A stretch of 36,518 nucleotides of DNA from a virus. Taxonomy: Duplodnaviria > Heunggongvirae > Uroviricota > Caudoviricetes. The stretch lies in IMG/VR virus record IMGVR_UViG_2534681766_000005. The stretch is one strand, 5' to 3'. Both the position numbers and the translations under genes were made by a program. The notes beneath the pieces are model-generated. The model ran no database searches and had not been told where the DNA came from. It saw nothing but the letters and a program-made list of their open reading frames with translations. This document shows positions 5,204 to 36,404 of the stretch, piece after piece (position 1 is the stretch's first letter; every line of letters begins with the position of its first letter).

Positions 5204-5215
5204 CACGCTACCGCC
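5204..5215 (-). promoter_or_regulatory. ops element (RfaH-dependent antitermination signal, JUMPstart) in waaQ leader
   Basis: Plus strand cacgctaccgcc = reverse complement GGCGGTAGCGTG on the waaQ-sense strand, in the untranslated leader upstream of waaQ. Confidence 0.8.
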
Positions 5216-5566
5216 CCAGGCTCAACAGCTACCTGAATACTGATACCGCACTGATATTGACGCGCTAGTGTATCACTTCTTTCGCGGCAATCCGACCCGA
5301 ATGATTTTTAAGCACATTGTTGATTTTCAATAAAGAAATCAATCAAATAAAATCATTAGCAACCATATTCTTTCACTGTTGCTCTGCGATTCCTTCCTGC
5401 ACGTACAGCAGAAATCAATGAATCGCATAAAAATACAAAAAAAGTATAGATGTTCAGCAAGAATTGGCGGGTAAATTGCTATTTAAGTCAAAAACGGGAA
5501 AAGTAATGGTAAAGCCACAGCTAAATACATAGAATCCCCAGCACATCCATAAGTCAGCTATTTACT

Positions 5567-11520: not shown

Positions 11521-12117
11521 ATGGCAGAAAAACAAACTGCGAAAAGGAACCGTCGCGAGGAAATACTTCAGTCTCTGGCGCTGATGCTGGAATCCAGCGA
11601 TGGAAGCCAACGTATCACGACGGCAAAACTGGCTGCCTCTGTCGGCGTTTCCGAAGCGGCACTATATCGCCACTTCCCCAGTAAGACCCGCATGTTCGAT
11701 AGCCTGATTGAGTTTATCGAAGATAGCCTGATTACTCGCATCAACCTGATTCTGAAAGATGAGAAAGACACCACAGCGCGCCTGCGTCTGATTGTGTTGC
11801 TGCTTCTCGGTTTTGGTGAGCGTAATCCTGGCCTGACCCGCATCCTTACCGGGCATGCGCTAATGTTTGAACAGGATCGCCTGCAAGGGCGCATCAACCA
11901 GCTGTTCGAGCGTATTGAAGCGCAGCTGCGTCAGGTATTGCGTGAAAAGAGAATGCGTGAGGGTGAAGGTTACACCACCGATGAAACCCTGCTGGCAAGC
12001 CAGATCCTGGCCTTCTGTGAAGGTATGCTGTCACGTTTTGTCCGCAGCGAGTTTAAATACCGCCCGACGGATGATTTTGACGCCCGCTGGCCGCTAATTG
12101 CCGCGCAGTTGCAGTAA
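11521..12117 (+). CDS. slmA: nucleoid occlusion factor SlmA (TetR family)
   Basis: From ATG 11521: [55 protein letters not shown]... HTH TetR-type; 198 aa. Confidence 0.93.
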
Positions 12118-12131
12118 TTCTCCCCTAAACG

Positions 12132-12161
12132 GTCAGGCAGAAACGTCTGCCTGACGCTTTT
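12132..12161. terminator. bidirectional hairpin terminator shared by convergent slmA and retron ret
   Basis: gtcaggcag-aaacgt-ctgcctgac perfect 9-bp stem followed by gctttt on the plus strand; lies between slmA stop (12117) and ret stop (12163). Confidence 0.7.
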
Positions 12162-12162
12162 C

Positions 12163-13122
12163 TTACCATGCAACCAGCATTCGCTTTACACTCTCTCTCG
12201 CCTGTTGAAAGGCCTCATCCTCAGGGTTGATTTGCAATAACCAGTTTATTCTTCCCTGCAAAGCATAAAGATACGCCGTTGCCTGTGCGTGGAGATCGCC
12301 AGAAGGATCAAGTTCACCACGATGACTAAGATGCGAAATAACGCCATATTTTTGGCACAAATGCACCTCCTGACGCAGCGCCCGGCGCGCTTCACGGGCA
12401 AGCTGTGGCTTGTGATTAACAACAATCCCGGTTACTTGCTGGCGCTTACAGGCAGCTATCAGGCAGCCTTTGCGTTTATTGAGGCTCAGGCCCAGCTCCG
12501 CTAACAATCCGCACACTTTATTTTTAACCTGGCGGGCATTGAAGTGACCTGAAAAGGTCATGTCATCGCAGTAGCGGGTGTAGGTAATTCCCCGAGCCTG
12601 ACACCATTCCCCTATGCGTTCATCAAAACGGCGCATCACAAGATTGGAAATGGCTGGCGAAGTTGGTGCCCCCTGCGGTAACGCGTCGTTATAACAACAA
12701 ATCCAGGTCAGCATGGTTACCACATTACGTGGCAACTGGGCCTGGCGAAACACACGCCAGACCTGTAACCAGCTAATGCTATCGAAAAAGTTTTCGATAT
12801 CGAGTTTCAGGATCTGCGGCTGTTGGCAGTGTGGCTGCGCGTTGCTGACGATTGGGCAACCTGGTCGGTAGGCTGTAGCAAAAGGGGAAAGCGGAAATTG
12901 TGAAAGGACGTTCTTAAGAATGTTGCGCTGTACGGTTTTGAGCAAGTAATCAGGGGCTAACACCAGCCGCTGACCACCGTGGCGTTTAGAAAGAATAATG
13001 CGTCGGTAATGGCGTCCGGCATGATTACTGAGCGCATGCAGTCGCTGTATTTCTTTATCGGCGCTCCAGCCCGGCGAGCCGAACAAATCGAGCGCCAGAA
13101 GGGTTGTCCGGGTAGCATCCAT
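12163..13122 (-). CDS. ret: retron-type reverse transcriptase (RT only, 319 aa)
   Basis: ORF with retron RT hallmarks: LDIENFFDSI, QGAPTSPAISNLV, YTRYCDDMTFSG (YxDD), VTGIVVNHK; preceded by an msr/msd-like structured region; ORF track adds 4 codons from a GTG at 13134. Confidence 0.9.
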   Translation of the reverse strand: MDATRTTLLALDLFGSPGWSADKEIQRLHALSNHAGRHYRRIILSKRHGGQRLVLAPDYLLKTVQRNILKNVLSQFPLSPFATAYRPGCPIVSNAQPHCQQPQILKLDIENFFDSISWLQVWRVFRQAQLPRNVVTMLTWICCYNDALPQGAPTSPAISNLVMRRFDERIGEWCQARGITYTRYCDDMTFSGHFNARQVKNKVCGLLAELGLSLNKRKGCLIAACKRQQVTGIVVNHKPQLAREARRALRQEVHLCQKYGVISHLSHRGELDPSGDLHAQATAYLYALQGRINWLLQINPEDEAFQQARESVKRMLVAW

Positions 13123-13154
13123 TCCACTCTCCACATCACGGCGGCCAAAAGAGG

Positions 13155-13348
13155 CGCCAACAGCGGCAATACCATTAAACCATCCCGAAGGCGCGTAACT
13201 GTACTGAGCGCGTCAGCGCGACGTACGCGAAGCGTACTCAGGTACAATGAAGCGACTTTGGGTATATGGACATACTACTGGCGTTAAGTCAGCGACTCGC
13301 CGACCCTCCCGGCACAAAAGGCCGGAAACGCTATTGCCACTGCTGGCG
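13155..13348 (-). ncRNA. msr-msd: retron msr-msd region, bounded by inverted repeats a1 (13333-13348) and a2 (13155-13170)
   Basis: 16-nt inverted repeats (CGCCAGCAGTGGCAAT / ATTGCCGCUGUUGGCG, two G-U wobbles) flank short hairpins (e.g. CCGGC..GCCGG at 13310-13326) and a dyad-rich segment at 13201-13245; directly upstream of ret on the same strand. Confidence 0.65.
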
Positions 13349-13419
13349 AAAGCAGATTAACACGATATCTTGAAGCGCATCACGCTGCGCACAGCAAAAA
13401 CCCTGCACAGCGCATATTT

Positions 13420-14061
13420 TTAAACGCCGAACTCTTCGCGATAGGCCTTAACCGCCGCCAGATGTTCCGCCATTTCCGGCTTCTCTTCCAGGTAAGCAAT
13501 CAGGTCTTTCAGGGTGATGATAGAGATCACTTTGCAGTTGTAATCACGCTCAACTTCCTGAATCGCCGAAATCTCGCCGCGCCCCCGTTCCTGACGATCG
13601 AGCGAAATCAACACGCCAGCAAGCGTCGCGCCATTGGCCTGAATAATTTCCATCGACTCACGAATCGCCGTTCCGGCGGTGATCACATCATCTACCAGCA
13701 TTACGCGTCCTTGTAACGCGCTACCAACCAGATTGCCGCCTTCACCGTGATCTTTTGCTTCTTTGCGGTTAAAGCAGTACGGCAGGGCCAGGGCATGATG
13801 CTCCGCCAGCGCCACGGCGGTTGTGGTGGCAATCGGGATCCCTTTGTAAGCAGGGCCAAACAGCAGATCGAACTCAATGCCGGAATCCACCAACGCTTCA
13901 GCGTAAAAACGGCCTAACAGTGCCAGATCGCGCCCGGTATTAAACAGCCCGGCGTTGAAGAAATAGGGGCTTTTGCGCCCGGACTTCAACGTAAACTCGC
14001 CAAACTTTAACACCTGCTTGCTAAGCGCAAATTCAATAAACTGGCGCTGATATGGTTTCAT
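13420..14061 (-). CDS. pyrE: orotate phosphoribosyltransferase
   Basis: From ATG at 14059-14061: [57 protein letters not shown]... 213 aa. Confidence 0.95.
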
Positions 14062-14092
14062 GCCTTCGCTCCTCATCTTACTTTTCTACAGA

Positions 14093-14120
14093 CAAAAAAA
14101 AGGCGACTCATCAGTCGCCT
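14093..14120 (-). terminator. pyrE attenuator (rho-independent terminator in rph-pyrE intercistronic region)
   Basis: Minus-strand stem AGGCGACU-GAUG-AGUCGCCU followed by a U8 run, between rph stop (14127) and pyrE start (14061). Confidence 0.8.
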
Positions 14121-14126
14121 TAAAAA

Positions 14127-16008: not shown

Positions 16009-16053
16009 TTACAGATTTACTTTCTTTGCAATCGATATCACATGGAGTGGGCA

Positions 16054-16656
16054 ATGAACGAACATCATCAACCTTTTGAAGAGATAAAACTGATTAATGC
16101 AAACGGAGCAGAACAATGGTCAGCAAGACAACTTGGGAAACTACTGGGTTATTCAGAGTATCGTCACTTTATACCTGTATTAACGCGCGCCAAAGAGGCC
16201 TGTGAGAACAGTGGTCACACAATTGATGACCATTTCGAGGAGATCCTCGATATGGTCAAAATTGGCTCAAATGCCAAAAGAGCATTAAAAGACATCGTAC
16301 TCTCCCGCTATGCCTGTTACCTGGTAGTACAAAACGGCGACCCCGCGAAACCGGTCATTGCGGCAGGGCAGACTTATTTTGCTATCCAGACCCGACGGCA
16401 GGAGCTTGCTGACGATGAAGCATTTAAGCAACTTCGTGAAGACGAAAAGCGTCTGTTTCTGAGAAATGAGTTGAAAGAACATAACAAACAATTGGTTGAG
16501 GCAGCACAGCAAGCTAATACCACACACTTTGACGTGGGTAGCAAGGTGAGGCAAACCATTCAGGAACTTGGCGGAACCATGCCTGAGGAGTTGCCGACCC
16601 CGCAGGTCAGCATCAAGCAGTTGGAAAACAGTGTAAAAATTACAGAGAAGAAATAG
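16054..16656 (+). CDS. dinD: DNA-damage-inducible protein D
   Basis: ORF MNEHHQPFEEIKLINANGAEQWSARQLGKLLGY... downstream of a LexA box; an in-frame ATG at 16042 is an alternative start; product is about 200 aa. Confidence 0.8.
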   Translation: MNEHHQPFEEIKLINANGAEQWSARQLGKLLGYSEYRHFIPVLTRAKEACENSGHTIDDHFEEILDMVKIGSNAKRALKDIVLSRYACYLVVQNGDPAKPVIAAGQTYFAIQTRRQELADDEAFKQLREDEKRLFLRNELKEHNKQLVEAAQQANTTHFDVGSKVRQTIQELGGTMPEELPTPQVSIKQLENSVKITEKK

Positions 16657-16946: not shown

Positions 16947-19353
<2,407 letters not shown>

Positions 19354-23278: not shown

Positions 23279-25360
23279 ATGAAAGGTCGCCTGTTAGATG
23301 CTGTCCCACTCAGTTCCCTAACGGGCGTTGGCGCAGCACTTAGTAACAAACTGGCGAAAATCAACCTGCATACCGTGCAGGATCTACTCTTACACCTTCC
23401 CCTGCGCTACGAAGATCGCACCCATCTCTACCCCATCGGAGAACTACTGCCGGGCGTTTATGCCACGGTGGAAGGCGAAGTGCTGAACTGCAATATCTCC
23501 TTCGGCGGTCGGCGGATGATGACCTGCCAGATCAGCGACGGTTCCGGCATCCTCACCATGCGCTTTTTCAATTTCAGCGCGGCAATGAAAAATAGCCTGG
23601 CGACGGGCCGCCGTGTACTGGCTTATGGCGAAGCAAAGCGCGGTAAATATGGTGCGGAGATGATCCACCCGGAATACCGCGTGCAGGGCGATCTCAGCAC
23701 GCCAGAATTACAGGAAACGCTCACGCCGGTTTATCCAACAACGGAAGGCGTAAAGCAGGCCACGCTGCGTAAATTAACCGACCAGGCGCTGGATCTGCTC
23801 GACACCTGCGCCATTGAAGAACTCCTGCCGCCGGAACTGTCACAAGGAATGATGACGCTACCGGAAGCGTTGCGCACTTTGCACCGCCCGCCGCCGACGC
23901 TACAGCTTAGCGATCTGGAAACCGGGCAGCATCCGGCGCAACGTCGTCTGATTCTGGAAGAACTGCTGGCGCACAACCTCAGCATGTTAGCCTTACGTGC
24001 CGGAGCACAGCGTTTTCATGCCCAGCCGCTGAGCGCCAATGACGCGCTGAAAAATAAACTCCTCGCCGCCTTACCGTTCAAGCCAACGGGCGCACAGGCA
24101 CGCGTAGTGGCGGAGATCGAGCATGATATGGCGCTGGATGTTCCAATGATGCGCCTGGTGCAGGGCGATGTAGGTTCCGGTAAAACACTGGTCGCCGCCC
24201 TCGCCGCGCTGCGTGCGATTGCCCACGGCAAACAGGTGGCCCTGATGGCACCAACCGAATTACTCGCCGAGCAGCACGCCAATAACTTCCGCAACTGGTT
24301 TGCACCGCTCGGTATCGAAGTGGGCTGGCTCGCCGGTAAGCAGAAAGGTAAAGCGCGACTGGCACAGCAGGAAGCCATCGCCAGCGGTCAGGTGCAGATG
24401 ATTGTCGGTACACACGCCATCTTCCAGGAACAGGTGCAGTTTAACGGTCTGGCGCTGGTGATTATCGACGAACAGCATCGTTTTGGCGTGCATCAGCGTC
24501 TGGCATTGTGGGAGAAAGGCCAGCAGCAGGGCTTCCATCCGCATCAGTTGATCATGACCGCCACGCCGATCCCCCGCACGCTGGCAATGACGGCGTATGC
24601 CGATCTCGATACCTCGGTGATAGATGAGCTGCCGCCAGGCCGCACGCCAGTGACTACGGTCGCTATTCCTGATCCCCGCCGTACCGACATCATTGACCGC
24701 GTGCGCCACGCCTGCATGACTGAAGGTCGTCAGGCGTACTGGGTTTGTACGTTGATTGAAGAGTCAGAGTTACTGGAAGCGCAGGCGGCGGAAGCTACCT
24801 GGGAAGAGTTGAAACTGGCGCTACCAGAATTGAATGTTGGCCTGGTACACGGGCGGATGAAACCAGCCGAGAAACAGGCGGTGATGGCGTCGTTTAAACA
24901 AGGTGAGCTACAACTGCTGGTTGCCACTACCGTTATTGAAGTCGGCGTTGATGTGCCTAACGCCAGTCTGATGATTATCGAAAACCCTGAGCGTCTGGGT
25001 CTAGCGCAGTTACACCAGCTGCGCGGGCGCGTAGGTCGTGGCGCGGTGGCTTCTCACTGCGTGCTGCTCTACAAAACGCCGCTCTCCAAAACGGCGCAAA
25101 TTCGCCTGCAAGTGCTGCGCGACAGTAACGACGGTTTTGTGATTGCGCAAAAAGATCTGGAGATTCGCGGCCCTGGCGAATTGTTAGGCACGCGTCAGAC
25201 GGGTAATGCTGAATTTAAAGTGGCGGATTTACTGCGCGATCAGGCGATGATCCCGGAAGTTCAGCGCCTGGCGCGACATATTCACGAACGTTACCCACAA
25301 CAAGCAAAAGCCCTGATAGAACGCTGGATGCCGGAGACGGAACGTTACTCCAACGCATGA
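23279..25360 (+). CDS. recG: ATP-dependent DNA helicase RecG
   Basis: From ATG 23279: MKGRLLDAVPLSSLTGVGAALSNKLAKINLHTVQDLL...; Walker A GDVGSGKT, DEQH box, helicase C motifs; 693 aa. Confidence 0.95.
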   Translation: MKGRLLDAVPLSSLTGVGAALSNKLAKINLHTVQDLLLHLPLRYEDRTHLYPIGELLPGVYATVEGEVLNCNISFGGRRMMTCQISDGSGILTMRFFNFSAAMKNSLATGRRVLAYGEAKRGKYGAEMIHPEYRVQGDLSTPELQETLTPVYPTTEGVKQATLRKLTDQALDLLDTCAIEELLPPELSQGMMTLPEALRTLHRPPPTLQLSDLETGQHPAQRRLILEELLAHNLSMLALRAGAQRFHAQPLSANDALKNKLLAALPFKPTGAQARVVAEIEHDMALDVPMMRLVQGDVGSGKTLVAALAALRAIAHGKQVALMAPTELLAEQHANNFRNWFAPLGIEVGWLAGKQKGKARLAQQEAIASGQVQMIVGTHAIFQEQVQFNGLALVIIDEQHRFGVHQRLALWEKGQQQGFHPHQLIMTATPIPRTLAMTAYADLDTSVIDELPPGRTPVTTVAIPDPRRTDIIDRVRHACMTEGRQAYWVCTLIEESELLEAQAAEATWEELKLALPELNVGLVHGRMKPAEKQAVMASFKQGELQLLVATTVIEVGVDVPNASLMIIENPERLGLAQLHQLRGRVGRGAVASHCVLLYKTPLSKTAQIRLQVLRDSNDGFVIAQKDLEIRGPGELLGTRQTGNAEFKVADLLRDQAMIPEVQRLARHIHERYPQQAKALIERWMPETERYSNA

Positions 25361-26211
25361 CCAGACTCATCACAAGACAAGTCACGCAGTAAATCTTCAA
25401 TCTGGATAGTGAGGATATCCATTGCCTCATACGCATCCTGTGCAATTCGCGCCGCCATTGCGCCTTCCGGTTCACCACGCAGAATTTCAGCCGCTGCCTG
25501 TACGCCAGCCACAATCATTTCAGGTGTTAACATTTGGCGAAGAAAAGCGCGATTATCAGAGGACCAGCCATCTTTATGGCCTAATGGATGCCCCCAGCCT
25601 ATCCATTCTTGCGACCATAACGGATTGGCTTCTATGGGATAAATTAGATGCGCGGCATACTGAATAGCACACACCGCTTTTCCTGGCGTATCCAGCGCCC
25701 ACCAGCGCGACCAGAGAGAACGAATTAACGGCGCGGCCCCACCCAGAGTATTGAACACCGCCAGCCAGCAAAGAACGTTATTGAAACCACGCTCGTTATC
25801 CATACGCTGCAACGCGGTGTCCAGTAAAAATTGCCGTACCTGCTGGCGTTGGGAAGCATTCATCATCTCCTGCCAGAGATAGGGCCGACACAATGCCTTC
25901 ATTAAGGATTCTTCGAAGTGATCACCATAACCGCCAGCTAAAACGGTTTCATGCCATTGCGCCAGGCAGAGCGGAAACAGATAGCGAAACAACTCTATTT
26001 GCATCGGTTCGTTATAAACGAGATTGAGTACATAGTAAGCACTCAAATCCCATTCGCTGATCTGCTGCCACTCTTTAGCCGCCAGCGCCTTGAGTTCGGC
26101 ATCTGCGTAATCAAATTCCGTTTCCCATACACAGAGCACTGGCGGCTCATCACCAAAAATATGGCGACAGTGTTCACGTAGCGTTTCCGGTTCCTTCCGA
26201 CGCTTTTTCAT
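25345..26211 (-). CDS. hypothetical protein, 288 aa, Trp-rich, no recognised domain
   Basis: Long ORF with ATG at 26209-26211, 2 nt after the gltS stop (26214-26216) on the same strand; 3' end overlaps recG stop by 16 bp; no TM segments evident. Confidence 0.55.
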   Translation of the reverse strand: MKKRRKEPETLREHCRHIFGDEPPVLCVWETEFDYADAELKALAAKEWQQISEWDLSAYYVLNLVYNEPMQIELFRYLFPLCLAQWHETVLAGGYGDHFEESLMKALCRPYLWQEMMNASQRQQVRQFLLDTALQRMDNERGFNNVLCWLAVFNTLGGAAPLIRSLWSRWWALDTPGKAVCAIQYAAHLIYPIEANPLWSQEWIGWGHPLGHKDGWSSDNRAFLRQMLTPEMIVAGVQAAAEILRGEPEGAMAARIAQDAYEAMDILTIQIEDLLRDLSCDESGHALE

Positions 26212-34974: not shown

Positions 34975-35069
34975 GGAAGATCGTCGTCTCCGGTGAGGCG
35001 GCTGGACTTCAAATCCAGTTGGGGCCGCCAGCGGTCCCGGGCAGGTTCGACTCCTGTGATCTTCCGCCA
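34975..35069 (+). tRNA. selC: tRNA-Sec (selenocysteine, UCA anticodon)
   Basis: 95-nt sequence GGAAGATCGTCGTCTCCGGTGAGGCGGCTGGACTTCAAATCCAGTTGGGGCCGCCAGCGGTCCCGGGCAGGTTCGACTCCTGTGATCTTCCGCCA, the canonical E. coli selC product with long variable arm. Confidence 0.97.
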
Positions 35070-35231
35070 AACTTCATCCAGCCAGTTCCGAGACGCTCCA
35101 TAAAACCCTTTATATTCAATATAATGAATAATCATCTTATCCGTAATAGTCCGAGATCGTTTTCCTGAATCCGTGAAAAATATGTATAGTAATGTGTATA
35201 GATTTTTCATACGTAGTTTTCAGTTATACAC

Positions 35232-36404
35232 ATGGCTCTAACCGATATACAGATCAAACGTGCAAAACCACAAGACAAGCCATACACATTGAACGATGGA
35301 CAAGGTCTGTCATTGCTTATCAATCCCGATGGCTCGAAAGGCTGGCGTTTCCGTTTCCGGTTTGCAGGGAAAGCGCGGTTAATGTCATTTGGCAGCTACG
35401 ACTTAGTAAGCCTCGCAGAAGCACGTGAGAAGCGTGATATCGCCCGTAAGCAGGTTGCTAATGGCATTGACCCGGTAGAGGAACGCAAAGCTTTAAGACT
35501 CGCCCAAAAGCTATCAACAGAAAATTCTTTCGAAGCAATATGTCGAGAATGGCATACCAACAAAGCAGACCGCTGGACTGTGGCCTATCGAGAAGAAATC
35601 ATTAAGACATTCGAGCAAGATGTCTTCCCGTTCATTGGTAAACGTCCTATCAGTGAAATCAAACCATTAGAACTGCTTGAAGTATTGCGACGAATAGAGA
35701 AACGAGGAGCACTAGAGAAGACCAGAAAAGTGCGCCAAAGATGCGGTGAGGTCTTTCGTTATGCAATCATAACTGGCCGAGCAGAATATAACCCAGCACC
35801 TGATTTAGCTATCGCTCTGGCCGTTCCTAAGCAAAAACACCACCCATTTTTATCAGCTGAAGAGTTACCTTATTTTATTCGGGATTTGGAAGCATATACC
35901 GGAAGCATCATCACGAAAAATGCGACGAAGATTATGATACTTACTGGTGTAAGGACTCAAGAGATACGCTTTGCAACATGGAGCGAGGTTGACCTTGAGA
36001 AAGGTATTTGGGAAATTCCTGCAGAACGGATGAAGATGCGTAGGCCTCATATTGTTCCTCTTTCTATTCAAGTAATAGAACTCTTTAAGCAGCTCAAGCC
36101 TATCACTGGCCATTACCCATTTATTTTCATTGGCAGGAATAATCGTAGCAAACCAATCTCAAAAGAAAGTGTTTCACAAGTAATTGAGTCGATTGGTTAC
36201 AAAGGACGCGCCACTGGTCATGGGTTCCGACATACCATGTCGACAATACTGCATGAGCAAGGATTTAACAGTGCCTGGATTGAAATGCAATTAGCGCATG
36301 TTGATAAAAATAGTATTCGTGGCACATATAACCATGCATTGTATTTGAAAGGTCGTAAGGAGATGCTATGTTGGTATGCCAACATTTTGTATCCCCTTGT
36401 ATAA
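35232..36404 (+). mobile_element. P4-type tyrosine integrase (390 aa) of a selC-associated genomic island
   Basis: ORF MALTDIQIKRAKPQDKPYTLNDGQGLSLLINPDGSKGWRFRFRFAGKARLMSFGSYDL... with C-terminal catalytic region (GHGFRHTMST..., RGTYNHA); ~160 bp 3' of tRNA-Sec; visibly AT-richer than flanking core genes. Confidence 0.9.

What the first reader, a model, noticed from the sequence alone, without database searches (positions are those of the whole stretch)
13123..14126. Retron has no co-encoded effector and sits where the pyrE terminator should be
Characterised defence retrons pair the RT and msDNA with an effector (fused domain or adjacent gene). Here the RT is bare (319 aa, RT domain only) and the insert has no room for another gene, since it is flanked directly by pyrE and slmA. 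The only ORFs overlapping the msr/msd region (12957-13247 minus, 12979-13287 plus) look spurious. The element lies immediately downstream of pyrE on the same strand, so read-through from the UTP-attenuated rph-pyrE operon could contribute to msr-msd-ret transcription, coupling msDNA production to pyrimidine status. Either the effector acts in trans from elsewhere, or this is a minimal retron of unclear function.
Basis: inference. Interest (0 to 1): 0.6.

Follow-up and report, generated by a model that had tools for sequence, protein, structure and literature searches.

The report
Retron-Ec107: known retron without effector
This is Retron-Ec107 (Retron-Eco5), an E. coli retron described in 1992 whose missing effector gene and position between pyrE and slmA are already published, so the finding is a correct rediscovery and not a new element.

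Summary
A 1300-bp insert (12119-13418) between slmA and pyrE holds only a 319-aa reverse transcriptase (13122-12163, minus strand) and one msr-msd RNA gene (13349-13154, minus strand). It replaces the 34-bp palindrome of the empty K-12 site. It is Retron-Ec107/Eco5: the best PADLOC model is RT_Ec107-like (7.6e-132), and the site and YCDD motif match published descriptions. Mestre et al. 2020 already discuss the missing effector and the pyrE adjacency. A 2026 survey reports no recurrent accessory genes in this clade.

New here:
- The same pyrE-retron-slmA arrangement occurs in other Escherichia and in Pseudocitrobacter.
- The RT is under purifying selection (dN/dS about 0.1), so the element is not a decaying remnant.
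- The ncRNA structure covaries.
- Neighbours of 79 analysed relatives (80 loci fetched) include no recurrent effector family.
- Both small overlapping ORFs are unconserved.

The read-through idea is unnecessary but not excluded. A conserved extended -10 lies just upstream of msr across the clade. The insert supplies pyrE with a replacement 3' hairpin, and the K-12 palindrome is itself terminator-like only in the slmA direction. The element's function remains unknown.

The parts
12119..13418 (.). The whole insert (1300 bp). It replaces 34 bp of the K-12 slmA-pyrE intergenic palindrome.
   Evidence: Junction comparison with K-12 MG1655. Present as one chromosomal copy in 383 of 5426 complete E. 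coli genomes.
12132..12155 (.). Hairpin at the slmA-proximal end of the insert. It is terminator-like for slmA (followed by GCTTTTCTT on the plus strand) and lies just after the RT stop on the minus strand.
   Evidence: Terminator scan. Folds at -18.4 kcal/mol (plus strand) and -19.8 kcal/mol (minus strand). A homologous hairpin with compensating changes is present in L005.
12163..13122 (-). Retron reverse transcriptase, 319 aa, with motifs YCDD, NAQPH (region X) and VTG.
   Evidence: Pfam RVT_1 3.6e-21. PADLOC RT_Ec107-like 7.6e-132. Motifs. Exact sequence of the UniRef cluster represented by Q05804. dN/dS 0.09-0.13.
13127..13132 (-). Ribosome-binding site GGAGAG, 6 nt upstream of the RT ATG.
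   Evidence: Sequence. The GGAG is conserved in all 7 syntenic loci.
13154..13349 (-). The msr-msd non-coding RNA gene (template and primer for msDNA-Ec107).
   Evidence: Single-sequence fold z = -4.3. Consensus structure with 22 of 60 pairs compensatory, 95.7% of cells paired and 0 of 500 shuffles as good. Covariance model hit of 213 bits, the only hit in the window.
13332..13347 (-). Inverted repeat a2 (5' arm of the closing stem). The G at 13331 immediately 3' of it is the predicted branching (priming) G.
   Evidence: Inverted repeat I1. Helix 1 has 7 covarying pairs. The branch G is placed by analogy with other retrons, which is inference.
13155..13171 (-). Inverted repeat a1 (3' arm of the closing stem). 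The msd template lies immediately 5' of it, at about 13278-13172 if the DNA is 107 nt.
   Evidence: The msd extent is inferred from the element's name (107-nt DNA).
13354..13362 (-). Predicted retron promoter: extended -10 TGtTAATCT, placing the transcript start at about the first base of a2.
   Evidence: Conserved as TGnTAnnCT in all 7 syntenic loci. A -10-like hexamer occurs at the same distance in Leminorella, Budvicia, Pragia, Neisseria and Enterobacter relatives. Clade-wide it is found in 24 of 44 loci against 3 of 44 in control windows. It was not detected by the strict two-hexamer scan, because no -35 is present.
13382..13413 (-). Hairpin immediately downstream of the pyrE stop codon. 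It is carried by the insert and has no U-tract.
   Evidence: -22.8 kcal/mol. The structure is kept through sequence change in other genera (L008 -30.7, L005 -20.9 kcal/mol). It is not called as an intrinsic terminator.
13420..14061 (-). pyrE (orotate phosphoribosyltransferase), a flanking housekeeping gene and not part of the retron.
   Evidence: Pfam Pribosyltran. 211 of 213 residues identical to K-12. No PADLOC match. RefSeq annotation.
14092..14121 (-). The rph-pyrE intercistronic attenuator (hairpin plus eight U), upstream of pyrE.
   Evidence: Terminator scan. Identical to K-12.
11521..12117 (+). slmA, the flanking gene convergent with the RT.
   Evidence: Pfam TetR_N and SlmA-like_C. RefSeq annotation.

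Best explanation
This is Retron-Ec107 (Retron-Eco5), a stand-alone two-part retron made of one msr-msd RNA gene and one 319-aa reverse transcriptase.

How it most likely works:
- The msr-msd-RT unit is transcribed from its own extended -10 promoter, which lies just 5' of msr. The promoter is predicted, not mapped.
- The RNA folds with the a2/a1 stem. The RT primes from the 2'-OH of the G next to a2 and copies msd into the 107-nt msDNA. This is the standard retron mechanism, and msDNA-Ec107 is an experimentally known product.
- No effector is encoded in cis, here or in any relative examined.

Evolution:
- The module is an old resident of the pyrE-slmA slot in Enterobacteriaceae and is inherited together with its flanks.
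- It is kept under purifying selection, so it is functional and not a remnant.
- The insert carries its own hairpins at both ends, which substitute for the palindrome it displaced.

What the RT-msDNA complex does is not known. The most likely reading is that the complex itself is the functional unit, acting on a host or phage factor that is not genetically linked to it. This last step is inference.
For: Identity:
- PADLOC RT_Ec107-like 7.6e-132.
- The RT is the exact sequence of the UniRef cluster represented by Q05804.
- It has the YCDD motif, which Simon et al. 2019 report for RT-Eco5.
- The 1300-bp insert replaces 34 bp between pyrE and slmA, matching the published description.

ncRNA:
- 22 of 60 pairs are compensatory and 95.7% of cells are paired. 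Slid controls give only 3-6 such pairs.
- The covariance model finds it directly upstream of the RT, on the same strand, in 62 of 80 relatives.

Own promoter:
- An extended -10 is conserved at a fixed distance across the clade.
- Published starvation and stationary-phase induction.

No effector:
- There is no room in the insert.
- Clustering the neighbours of the 79 analysed relatives (80 loci fetched) finds no recurrent family. The largest tightly linked set covers 4 loci.
- The tightly linked downstream genes are assorted housekeeping genes.
- Of 148 neighbours scanned against PADLOC, none matched a retron effector model recurrently. The most frequent hit was a generic HTH model in 3.
- Literature agrees.

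Selection and age:
- The RT is intact in all 9 syntenic loci checked, with dN/dS 0.09-0.13 in the unsaturated pairs.
- The same slot is occupied in Escherichia sp., an unnamed Enterobacteriaceae lineage and Pseudocitrobacter.
- RT dS is similar to flank dS within E. coli and within Pseudocitrobacter.
Against: - No transcript mapping was available, and Herzer 1996 could not be read. The promoter is therefore only a prediction, and the strict sigma-70 scan did not call it.
- Between Escherichia lineages (window against L002) the RT dS (0.54) is 2-5 times that of the flanks (0.10-0.24). Strict co-divergence is therefore not proven, and exchange of the locus by homologous recombination remains possible.
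- The element is absent from 93% of complete E. coli genomes, so any benefit is conditional.
- No function has been demonstrated for any member of this clade. Millman et al. excluded Ec107 from their phage tests.
Confidence: 0.8

Rival explanations
1. Split three-part system. A toxin or effector encoded elsewhere in the genome is held inactive by RT-msDNA-Ec107, and the system gives abortive-infection defence like other retrons.
For: All characterised defence retrons work this way. Purifying selection on the RT and ncRNA fits any function, including this one. Mestre et al. name it as one possibility.
Against: Mestre et al. report that most genomes with these orphan retrons lack homologues of known retron-associated proteins. 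No recurrent neighbour is found in the 79 analysed relatives from Proteobacteria and Firmicutes, and a 2026 survey of 192 clade members finds no recurrent accessory module. An unlinked toxin-antitoxin pair would be unstable under gene loss and transfer. Only 36.5 kb of the source genome could be inspected, and it is core genome.
Confidence: 0.25
2. Transcription reading through from the UTP-attenuated rph-pyrE operon contributes materially to msr-msd-RT expression and so couples msDNA level to pyrimidine supply.
For: The retron is co-oriented with pyrE. Only 72 nt separate the pyrE stop from a2, and the hairpin between them has no U-tract and is not called as an intrinsic terminator. The attenuator upstream of pyrE is intact. 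In Leminorella only about 43 nt, with no hairpin seen by eye, separate cyaY from the ncRNA.
Against: A conserved -10 element sits just upstream of msr in every context, so the element does not depend on its neighbour. The strong hairpin after pyrE is conserved by compensatory change, as expected if it ends or insulates the pyrE transcript. Co-orientation with one neighbour is automatic for anything inserted between convergent genes. Relatives sit downstream of unrelated genes such as cyaY, a CdaR-like regulator and ftsX. Conservation of the pyrE linkage is explained by vertical inheritance.
Confidence: 0.15
3. Decaying remnant. A former type III-A retron lost its PRTase-like effector and is now a functionless leftover.
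For: The RT scores second-best against the RT_III-A models. Mestre et al. place the branch next to PRTase-linked RTs and suggest loss of the associated protein.
Against: The RT ORF is intact in all 9 syntenic loci checked, across several genera, with dN/dS 0.09-0.13. The ncRNA helices are maintained by compensatory changes. The promoter element and RBS are conserved. The stand-alone state is shared by the 79 analysed relatives down to 41% identity, so it is old and stable.
Confidence: 0.04
4. PyrE, itself a phosphoribosyltransferase, has been co-opted as the retron's effector, in parallel with the PRTase-like effectors of the sister type III-A retrons.
For: The pyrE-retron adjacency is conserved across Escherichia, Pseudocitrobacter and another Enterobacteriaceae lineage. 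The sister clade uses PRTase-like partners.
Against: PyrE matches no PADLOC model, including the retron PRTase models. It is 99% identical to PyrE of retron-free K-12. Its two substitutions are private to this lineage and absent from other retron carriers. The next-closest relatives lie beside cyaY/cyaA and a CdaR-like regulator with garD, not beside a PRTase. pyrE lies upstream of the ncRNA as the end of a separate housekeeping operon. Mestre et al. also doubted a functional link.
Confidence: 0.04

Closest known systems
Retron-Ec107 / Retron-Eco5 (Herzer, Inouye and Inouye 1992; cited in PMC6868368 and PMC7736814)
   Same: Same element. The RT is 319 aa with YCDD. The location is between pyrE and slmA (formerly ttk), replacing a 34-bp palindrome. 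No prophage or mobile-element context is present. The best PADLOC model is RT_Ec107-like. The protein is identical to the sequence held under UniProt Q05804.
   Different: Nothing detected. From memory, Q05804 is the Swiss-Prot entry for the Ec107 RT. The name shown by the tool is only 'RNA-directed DNA polymerase', so that last link is not verified here.
Type III-A1 retrons (RT clade 2 with a PRTase-like protein and a winged-helix protein; Mestre et al. 2020)
   Same: Nearest classified RT group. RT_III-A is the second-best PADLOC model (313 bits, against 437 for RT_Ec107-like), and Mestre et al. place the two branches at a common node.
   Different: Ec107 has no PRTase-like or winged-helix partner. 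The adjacent PyrE is an ordinary housekeeping enzyme with no match to defence models.
Retron-Ec86 / Eco1 (type II-A; solved structures 7v9u, 7xjg, 8qbk)
   Same: Closest RT with a solved structure (E = 4e-40 over residues 28-266). The overall msr-msd-RT layout and the a1/a2 closing stem are the same.
   Different: Ec86 has a nucleoside deoxyribosyltransferase-like effector and sits in a prophage. Ec107 has neither.
Stand-alone msr-msd-RT cassettes of RT clade 11 (Actinobacteria; Mestre et al. 2020)
   Same: The other retron lineage reported without an associated protein, and likewise suggested to be vertically inherited and possibly domesticated.
   Different: A different RT clade, ncRNA family and host phylum. 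Not examined here.

Membership tests
Retron (msr-msd plus RT) | Reverse transcriptase with the retron-specific regions X (NAxxH) and Y (VTG) and a YxDD catalytic box | tested here: met
   NAQPH, VTG and YCDD are present. All top PADLOC hits are retron RT models. RVT_1.
Retron (msr-msd plus RT) | Structured ncRNA immediately upstream of the RT on the same strand, closed by inverted repeats a2/a1 with a conserved G next to a2 | tested here: met
   Inverted repeat. Covarying consensus structure. G19 of the alignment is invariant. Covariance model hit at 13349-13154.
Retron (msr-msd plus RT) | Production of branched RNA-linked msDNA | not testable with these tools
   Known from the literature for Ec107 (searches list it among experimentally validated retrons). 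Not testable from sequence.
Tripartite defence retron (ncRNA, RT and effector) | Effector gene adjacent to the RT, or an effector domain fused to it | tested here: not met
   The insert holds only the RT. The RT has no extra domain. Neighbours of the 79 analysed relatives show no recurrent family and no recurrent retron effector model.
Tripartite defence retron (ncRNA, RT and effector) | Protection against phage | not tested
   Millman et al. excluded Ec107 from their phage challenge. No published test was found.
Retron-Ec107 / Eco5 | RT of 319 aa with YCDD that best matches the Ec107 model | tested here: met
   YCDD is reported for RT-Eco5 in PMC6868368.
Retron-Ec107 / Eco5 | Inserted between pyrE and slmA (ttk) in place of a 34-bp palindromic intergenic sequence, with no prophage context | tested here: met
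   Junctions against K-12. The flanks are core genes. Described in PMC6868368.
Type III-A retron | PRTase-like effector (clusters 67/113 of Mestre et al.), with or without a winged-helix protein, encoded beside the RT | tested here: not met
   PyrE has no PADLOC hit at E <= 0.001. No PRTase or wHTH model appears among the 148 neighbours scanned.

The most novel reading that the evidence does not exclude
The Ec107-like retrons are a large, old lineage found in Enterobacterales and gut Firmicutes. In this lineage the RT-msDNA pair alone, with its own promoter and no toxin partner, is the selected functional unit. This would mean a retron activity that is not effector-mediated abortive infection, for example a stationary-phase or starvation function, or msDNA acting directly as a decoy for a host or phage nucleic-acid-binding protein. 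In Enterobacteriaceae it would behave as a domesticated chromosomal gene fixed at the pyrE-slmA locus since before Escherichia and Pseudocitrobacter diverged.
Probability: 0.3. Interest if true: 0.7.

Novelty: already known. Interest (0 to 1): 0.25.

Why it matters
The finding itself adds nothing new. The element, its insertion site and its lack of an effector are all published.

The underlying question remains open: what does a retron do without an effector? The analysis here sharpens it. The stand-alone state is not recent decay. The RT and ncRNA are under purifying selection, the module carries its own conserved promoter, and it has stayed in one chromosomal slot across genera.

That makes Ec107 a clean, minimal and experimentally tractable case, a 1.3-kb cassette in E. 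coli, for asking whether the RT-msDNA complex has an activity of its own or works with an unlinked partner.

Tried and rejected
1. A general preference for slots between convergent genes (possible terminator targeting). All four enterobacterial slots are convergent. Among the 72 of 80 relatives with a called neighbour on both sides, the slots were convergent in 17, co-directional in 40 and divergent in 15, which I judge (from general knowledge, not measured here) to be close to a typical genome background. The idea was rejected. The neighbour calls came from a crude longest-ORF method, so the counts are approximate.

2. The two small ORFs over msr-msd as hidden effectors. They are not conserved in length or presence and have no family match.

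3. A hidden recurrent neighbour gene in relatives. All-against-all clustering found no cluster covering more than 5 of the analysed loci. The tightly linked downstream genes are assorted housekeeping genes. PADLOC finds no retron effector models.

4. PyrE co-adaptation. The D90A and D92A substitutions are private to this lineage.

5. A recombination-import signature in the flanks. Mismatches to K-12 are not elevated next to the insert.

6. Rfam has no retron ncRNA hit in the window at gathering threshold. The ncRNA was established by covariation instead.

7. Herzer 1996, the paper most likely to settle the promoter question, is not held in the library. Herzer 1992 was not looked up.

8. A genome-wide search of the source strain for orphan effectors is not possible with a 36.5-kb window.

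Full report
**What is there.**
- Reading the minus strand, the region runs rph (14843-14127), the rph-pyrE attenuator (hairpin 14121-14100 plus eight U), pyrE (14061-13420), a 297-nt non-coding gap, then a 319-aa ORF (13122-12163). slmA converges on that ORF from the other side (11521-12117, plus strand).
- The ORF contains only an RVT_1 domain.
- Its best defence-model match is PADLOC RT_Ec107-like (7.6e-132, covering residues 8-319), followed by the RT_III-A models.
- It carries the retron motifs NAQPH and VTG and the unusual catalytic box YCDD.
- The finding's interval 13123-14126 is exactly the stretch from the RT start to the rph stop.

**The insert and its identity.**
- Against K-12 MG1655, identity stops 1 nt after the slmA stop and 1 nt after the pyrE stop. 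A 1300-bp insert (12119-13418) replaces 34 bp of the K-12 palindrome GCCGGATGACTTTTCATCCGGC and its flanks.
- This matches the published description of Retron-Ec107 (Retron-Eco5), which "replaces a palindromic 34 bp in an intergenic region". The YCDD box is also the one reported for RT-Eco5 (PMC6868368).
- The protein is the exact sequence held in the UniRef cluster represented by Q05804. From memory, Q05804 is the Ec107 RT entry.
- The insert occurs once, on the chromosome and at this site, in 383 of 5426 complete E. coli genomes.

**What was already known about the missing effector.**
- Mestre et al. 2020 (PMC7736814) discuss this element directly. It belongs to a branch of RT clade 2 with "stand-alone (msr-msd)-RT cassettes".
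- They leave two options open: an unknown effector acting in trans, or a different mechanistic function. They also suggest vertical inheritance and domestication for clade 2.
- Millman et al. excluded Ec107 from their phage tests.
- The core of the finding is therefore a rediscovery.

**The ncRNA.**
- The gap folds into a standard retron RNA: a long a2/a1 closing stem (13347-13332 with 13171-13155), two msr hairpins and a long msd hairpin (z = -4.3).
- Ten sequences from Escherichia, Pseudocitrobacter, Leminorella and Budvicia were aligned.
- In that alignment 95.7% of cells are paired and 22 of 60 pairs show compensatory changes. No shuffle out of 500 reaches these values, and slid controls give 3-6 such pairs.
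- A covariance model built from the alignment gives a single hit in the window (13349-13154, 213 bits). It also finds the RNA directly upstream of the RT, on the same strand, in 62 of 80 relatives from one-genome-per-species contigs.
- Rfam has no model that reaches threshold here.

**No effector anywhere in the clade.**
- The insert has no room for another gene.
- The two ORFs over msr-msd have no family match. In the closest relative (L002) one is cut to 47 aa and the other is absent. Lengths vary from 40 to 103 aa in the other relatives.
- 80 relatives with 41-69% RT identity were fetched (79 could be analysed). They come from Enterobacterales, Neisseria and many gut Firmicutes. Clustering their neighbours shows no recurrent family. 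The largest tightly linked set covers 4 loci.
- Tightly linked downstream genes include topoisomerase III, a MarR regulator, a response regulator, an AAA-ATPase/PD-(D/E)XK protein, an aldo-keto reductase and peptidase U32.
- Of 148 immediate neighbours scanned against PADLOC, no retron effector model recurs. The most frequent hit is a generic HTH model in 3.
- PyrE matches no PADLOC model.

**Age and selection (additions to the literature).**
- RTs that are 86%, 72%, 71% and 70% identical all lie in the same slot in the same orientation. Their hosts are Escherichia sp. MOD1-EC7003, an unnamed Enterobacteriaceae lineage, and Pseudocitrobacter (the last two). The same holds for two further species representatives.
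- Flank nucleotide divergence is about half the RT divergence at both shallow and deep distances.
- Within E. coli (alleles L095 and L096) and within Pseudocitrobacter, RT dS falls inside the range of dut, slmA, pyrE and rph. Between Escherichia lineages it is 2-5 times higher.
- The RT is intact in all nine syntenic loci checked. dN/dS is 0.09-0.13 in the unsaturated pairs.
- The element is therefore an old, selected resident of this locus, inherited with its flanks. Some exchange of the whole locus by homologous recombination cannot be excluded.
- The next-closest relatives sit in other slots: cyaY/cyaA in Leminorella, and a CdaR-like regulator with garD in Pragia.
- The pyrE linkage thus reflects inheritance, not an obligate partnership.

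**The terminator and read-through question.**
- In the empty K-12 site, the palindrome meets the terminator criteria only in the slmA direction. In the pyrE direction it is a hairpin of -18.2 kcal/mol followed by GUCAUAUUA.
- The insert places a stronger hairpin (-22.8 kcal/mol, 13413-13382) directly after the pyrE stop, again with no U-tract. This hairpin is kept through sequence change in other genera (-30.7 and -20.9 kcal/mol).
- At the other end the insert carries a hairpin (12132-12155) that is terminator-like for slmA.
- The pyrE 3' structure is therefore replaced and not lost. By these criteria no canonical intrinsic terminator separates pyrE from msr, so read-through cannot be excluded.
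- Read-through is not needed, however. An extended -10 (TGtTAATCT, 13362-13354) lies about 7 nt before a2. It is conserved as TGnTAnnCT in all syntenic loci and recurs at the same distance in relatives with unrelated upstream genes.
- Across the clade a -10-like hexamer ends at -12 to -5 in 24 of 44 loci, against 3 of 44 in each of two control windows.
- From my own knowledge, the motif TGTGCTATACT seen in several members resembles the sigma-S type extended -10. That would fit the published induction in starvation and stationary phase. This is inference.
- Co-orientation with pyrE carries no information, because anything inserted between convergent genes is co-oriented with one of them.

**Rivals.**
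- A trans-encoded toxin remains possible (about 0.25), but the absence of any linked or recurrent partner across phyla makes it less attractive.
- A decaying remnant is contradicted by the selection data.
- PyrE as a co-opted PRTase effector is contradicted by several results. PyrE is 99% identical to the K-12 enzyme. Its two private substitutions do not track the retron. It matches no defence model. Close relatives sit in non-PRTase slots.

**Verdict.**
It largely restates published uncertainty about a known element.
- The read-through idea is a minor, untested addition, and the conserved promoter and conserved pyrE hairpin make it unnecessary.
- Novelty: already known. Interest is low for the finding as given.
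- The underlying open question, the function of stand-alone retrons, is real, and Ec107 is a good system for addressing it.

Noticed in passing
L002, L005, L008, L009, L015, L016 (pyrE-RT-slmA loci); window 12119-13418: The retron occupies the same pyrE-slmA slot in Escherichia sp., an unnamed Enterobacteriaceae lineage and several Pseudocitrobacter species. Mestre et al. counted only 2 of 59 branch members beside a PRTase. In Pseudocitrobacter the RT stop overlaps the slmA stop by 4 nt, so the slmA-side hairpin is absent there.
   Followed up: yes
L015-L094: Ec107-like RT plus ncRNA modules are common in gut Firmicutes (Lachnospiraceae, Blautia, Hungatella, Lacrimispora and others), not only in Gammaproteobacteria. 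More than 593 species representatives matched the two RT peptide patterns.
   Followed up: partly
window 13786-13794 (PyrE residues 90-92): PyrE reads HHALAL where K-12 and all other retron carriers checked read HHDLDL or HHDRDL. The two changes are D90A and D92A. The pair is private to this lineage, and its effect is unknown.
   Followed up: partly
window 25345-26211 (minus strand): A 288-aa ORF between recG and gltS is annotated 'hypothetical protein' in RefSeq and has no Pfam or PADLOC match. It is present in 1918 of 5426 complete E. coli genomes, including O157:H7 strains; the one O157:H7 genome listed (TR01) lacks the retron. It overlaps the 3' end of recG by 16 nt.
   Followed up: partly
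window 17561-19188 (minus strand): ligB is annotated as frameshifted (a pseudogene) in the near-identical APEC O78 genome. In the window the longest ORF here is 505 aa (17561-19078), shorter than the 562-594 aa LigB genes called in related loci.
   Followed up: no
window 16042-16656 (plus strand): DinD (about 200 aa, Bro-N domain) matches the PADLOC candidate-defence model PDC-S13 (1.5e-78) and part of a Type I specificity-subunit model.
   Followed up: no
window 34975-35276: The tRNA-Sec gene (selC), a classic island integration site, is followed by only a short rhuM pseudogene fragment and then setC. No intact island is present at selC in this strain.
   Followed up: no
window 14092-14099 and L097: The U-run of the pyrE attenuator has 8 residues in the window and in K-12 but 7 in the APEC O78 assembly. 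This may be a homopolymer sequencing error in that older assembly.
   Followed up: partly
window 5204-5242 (minus strand): A JUMPstart element (Rfam RF01707, 55 bits) lies upstream of the rfaQ-waaG-rfaP LPS core operon, as expected.
   Followed up: no
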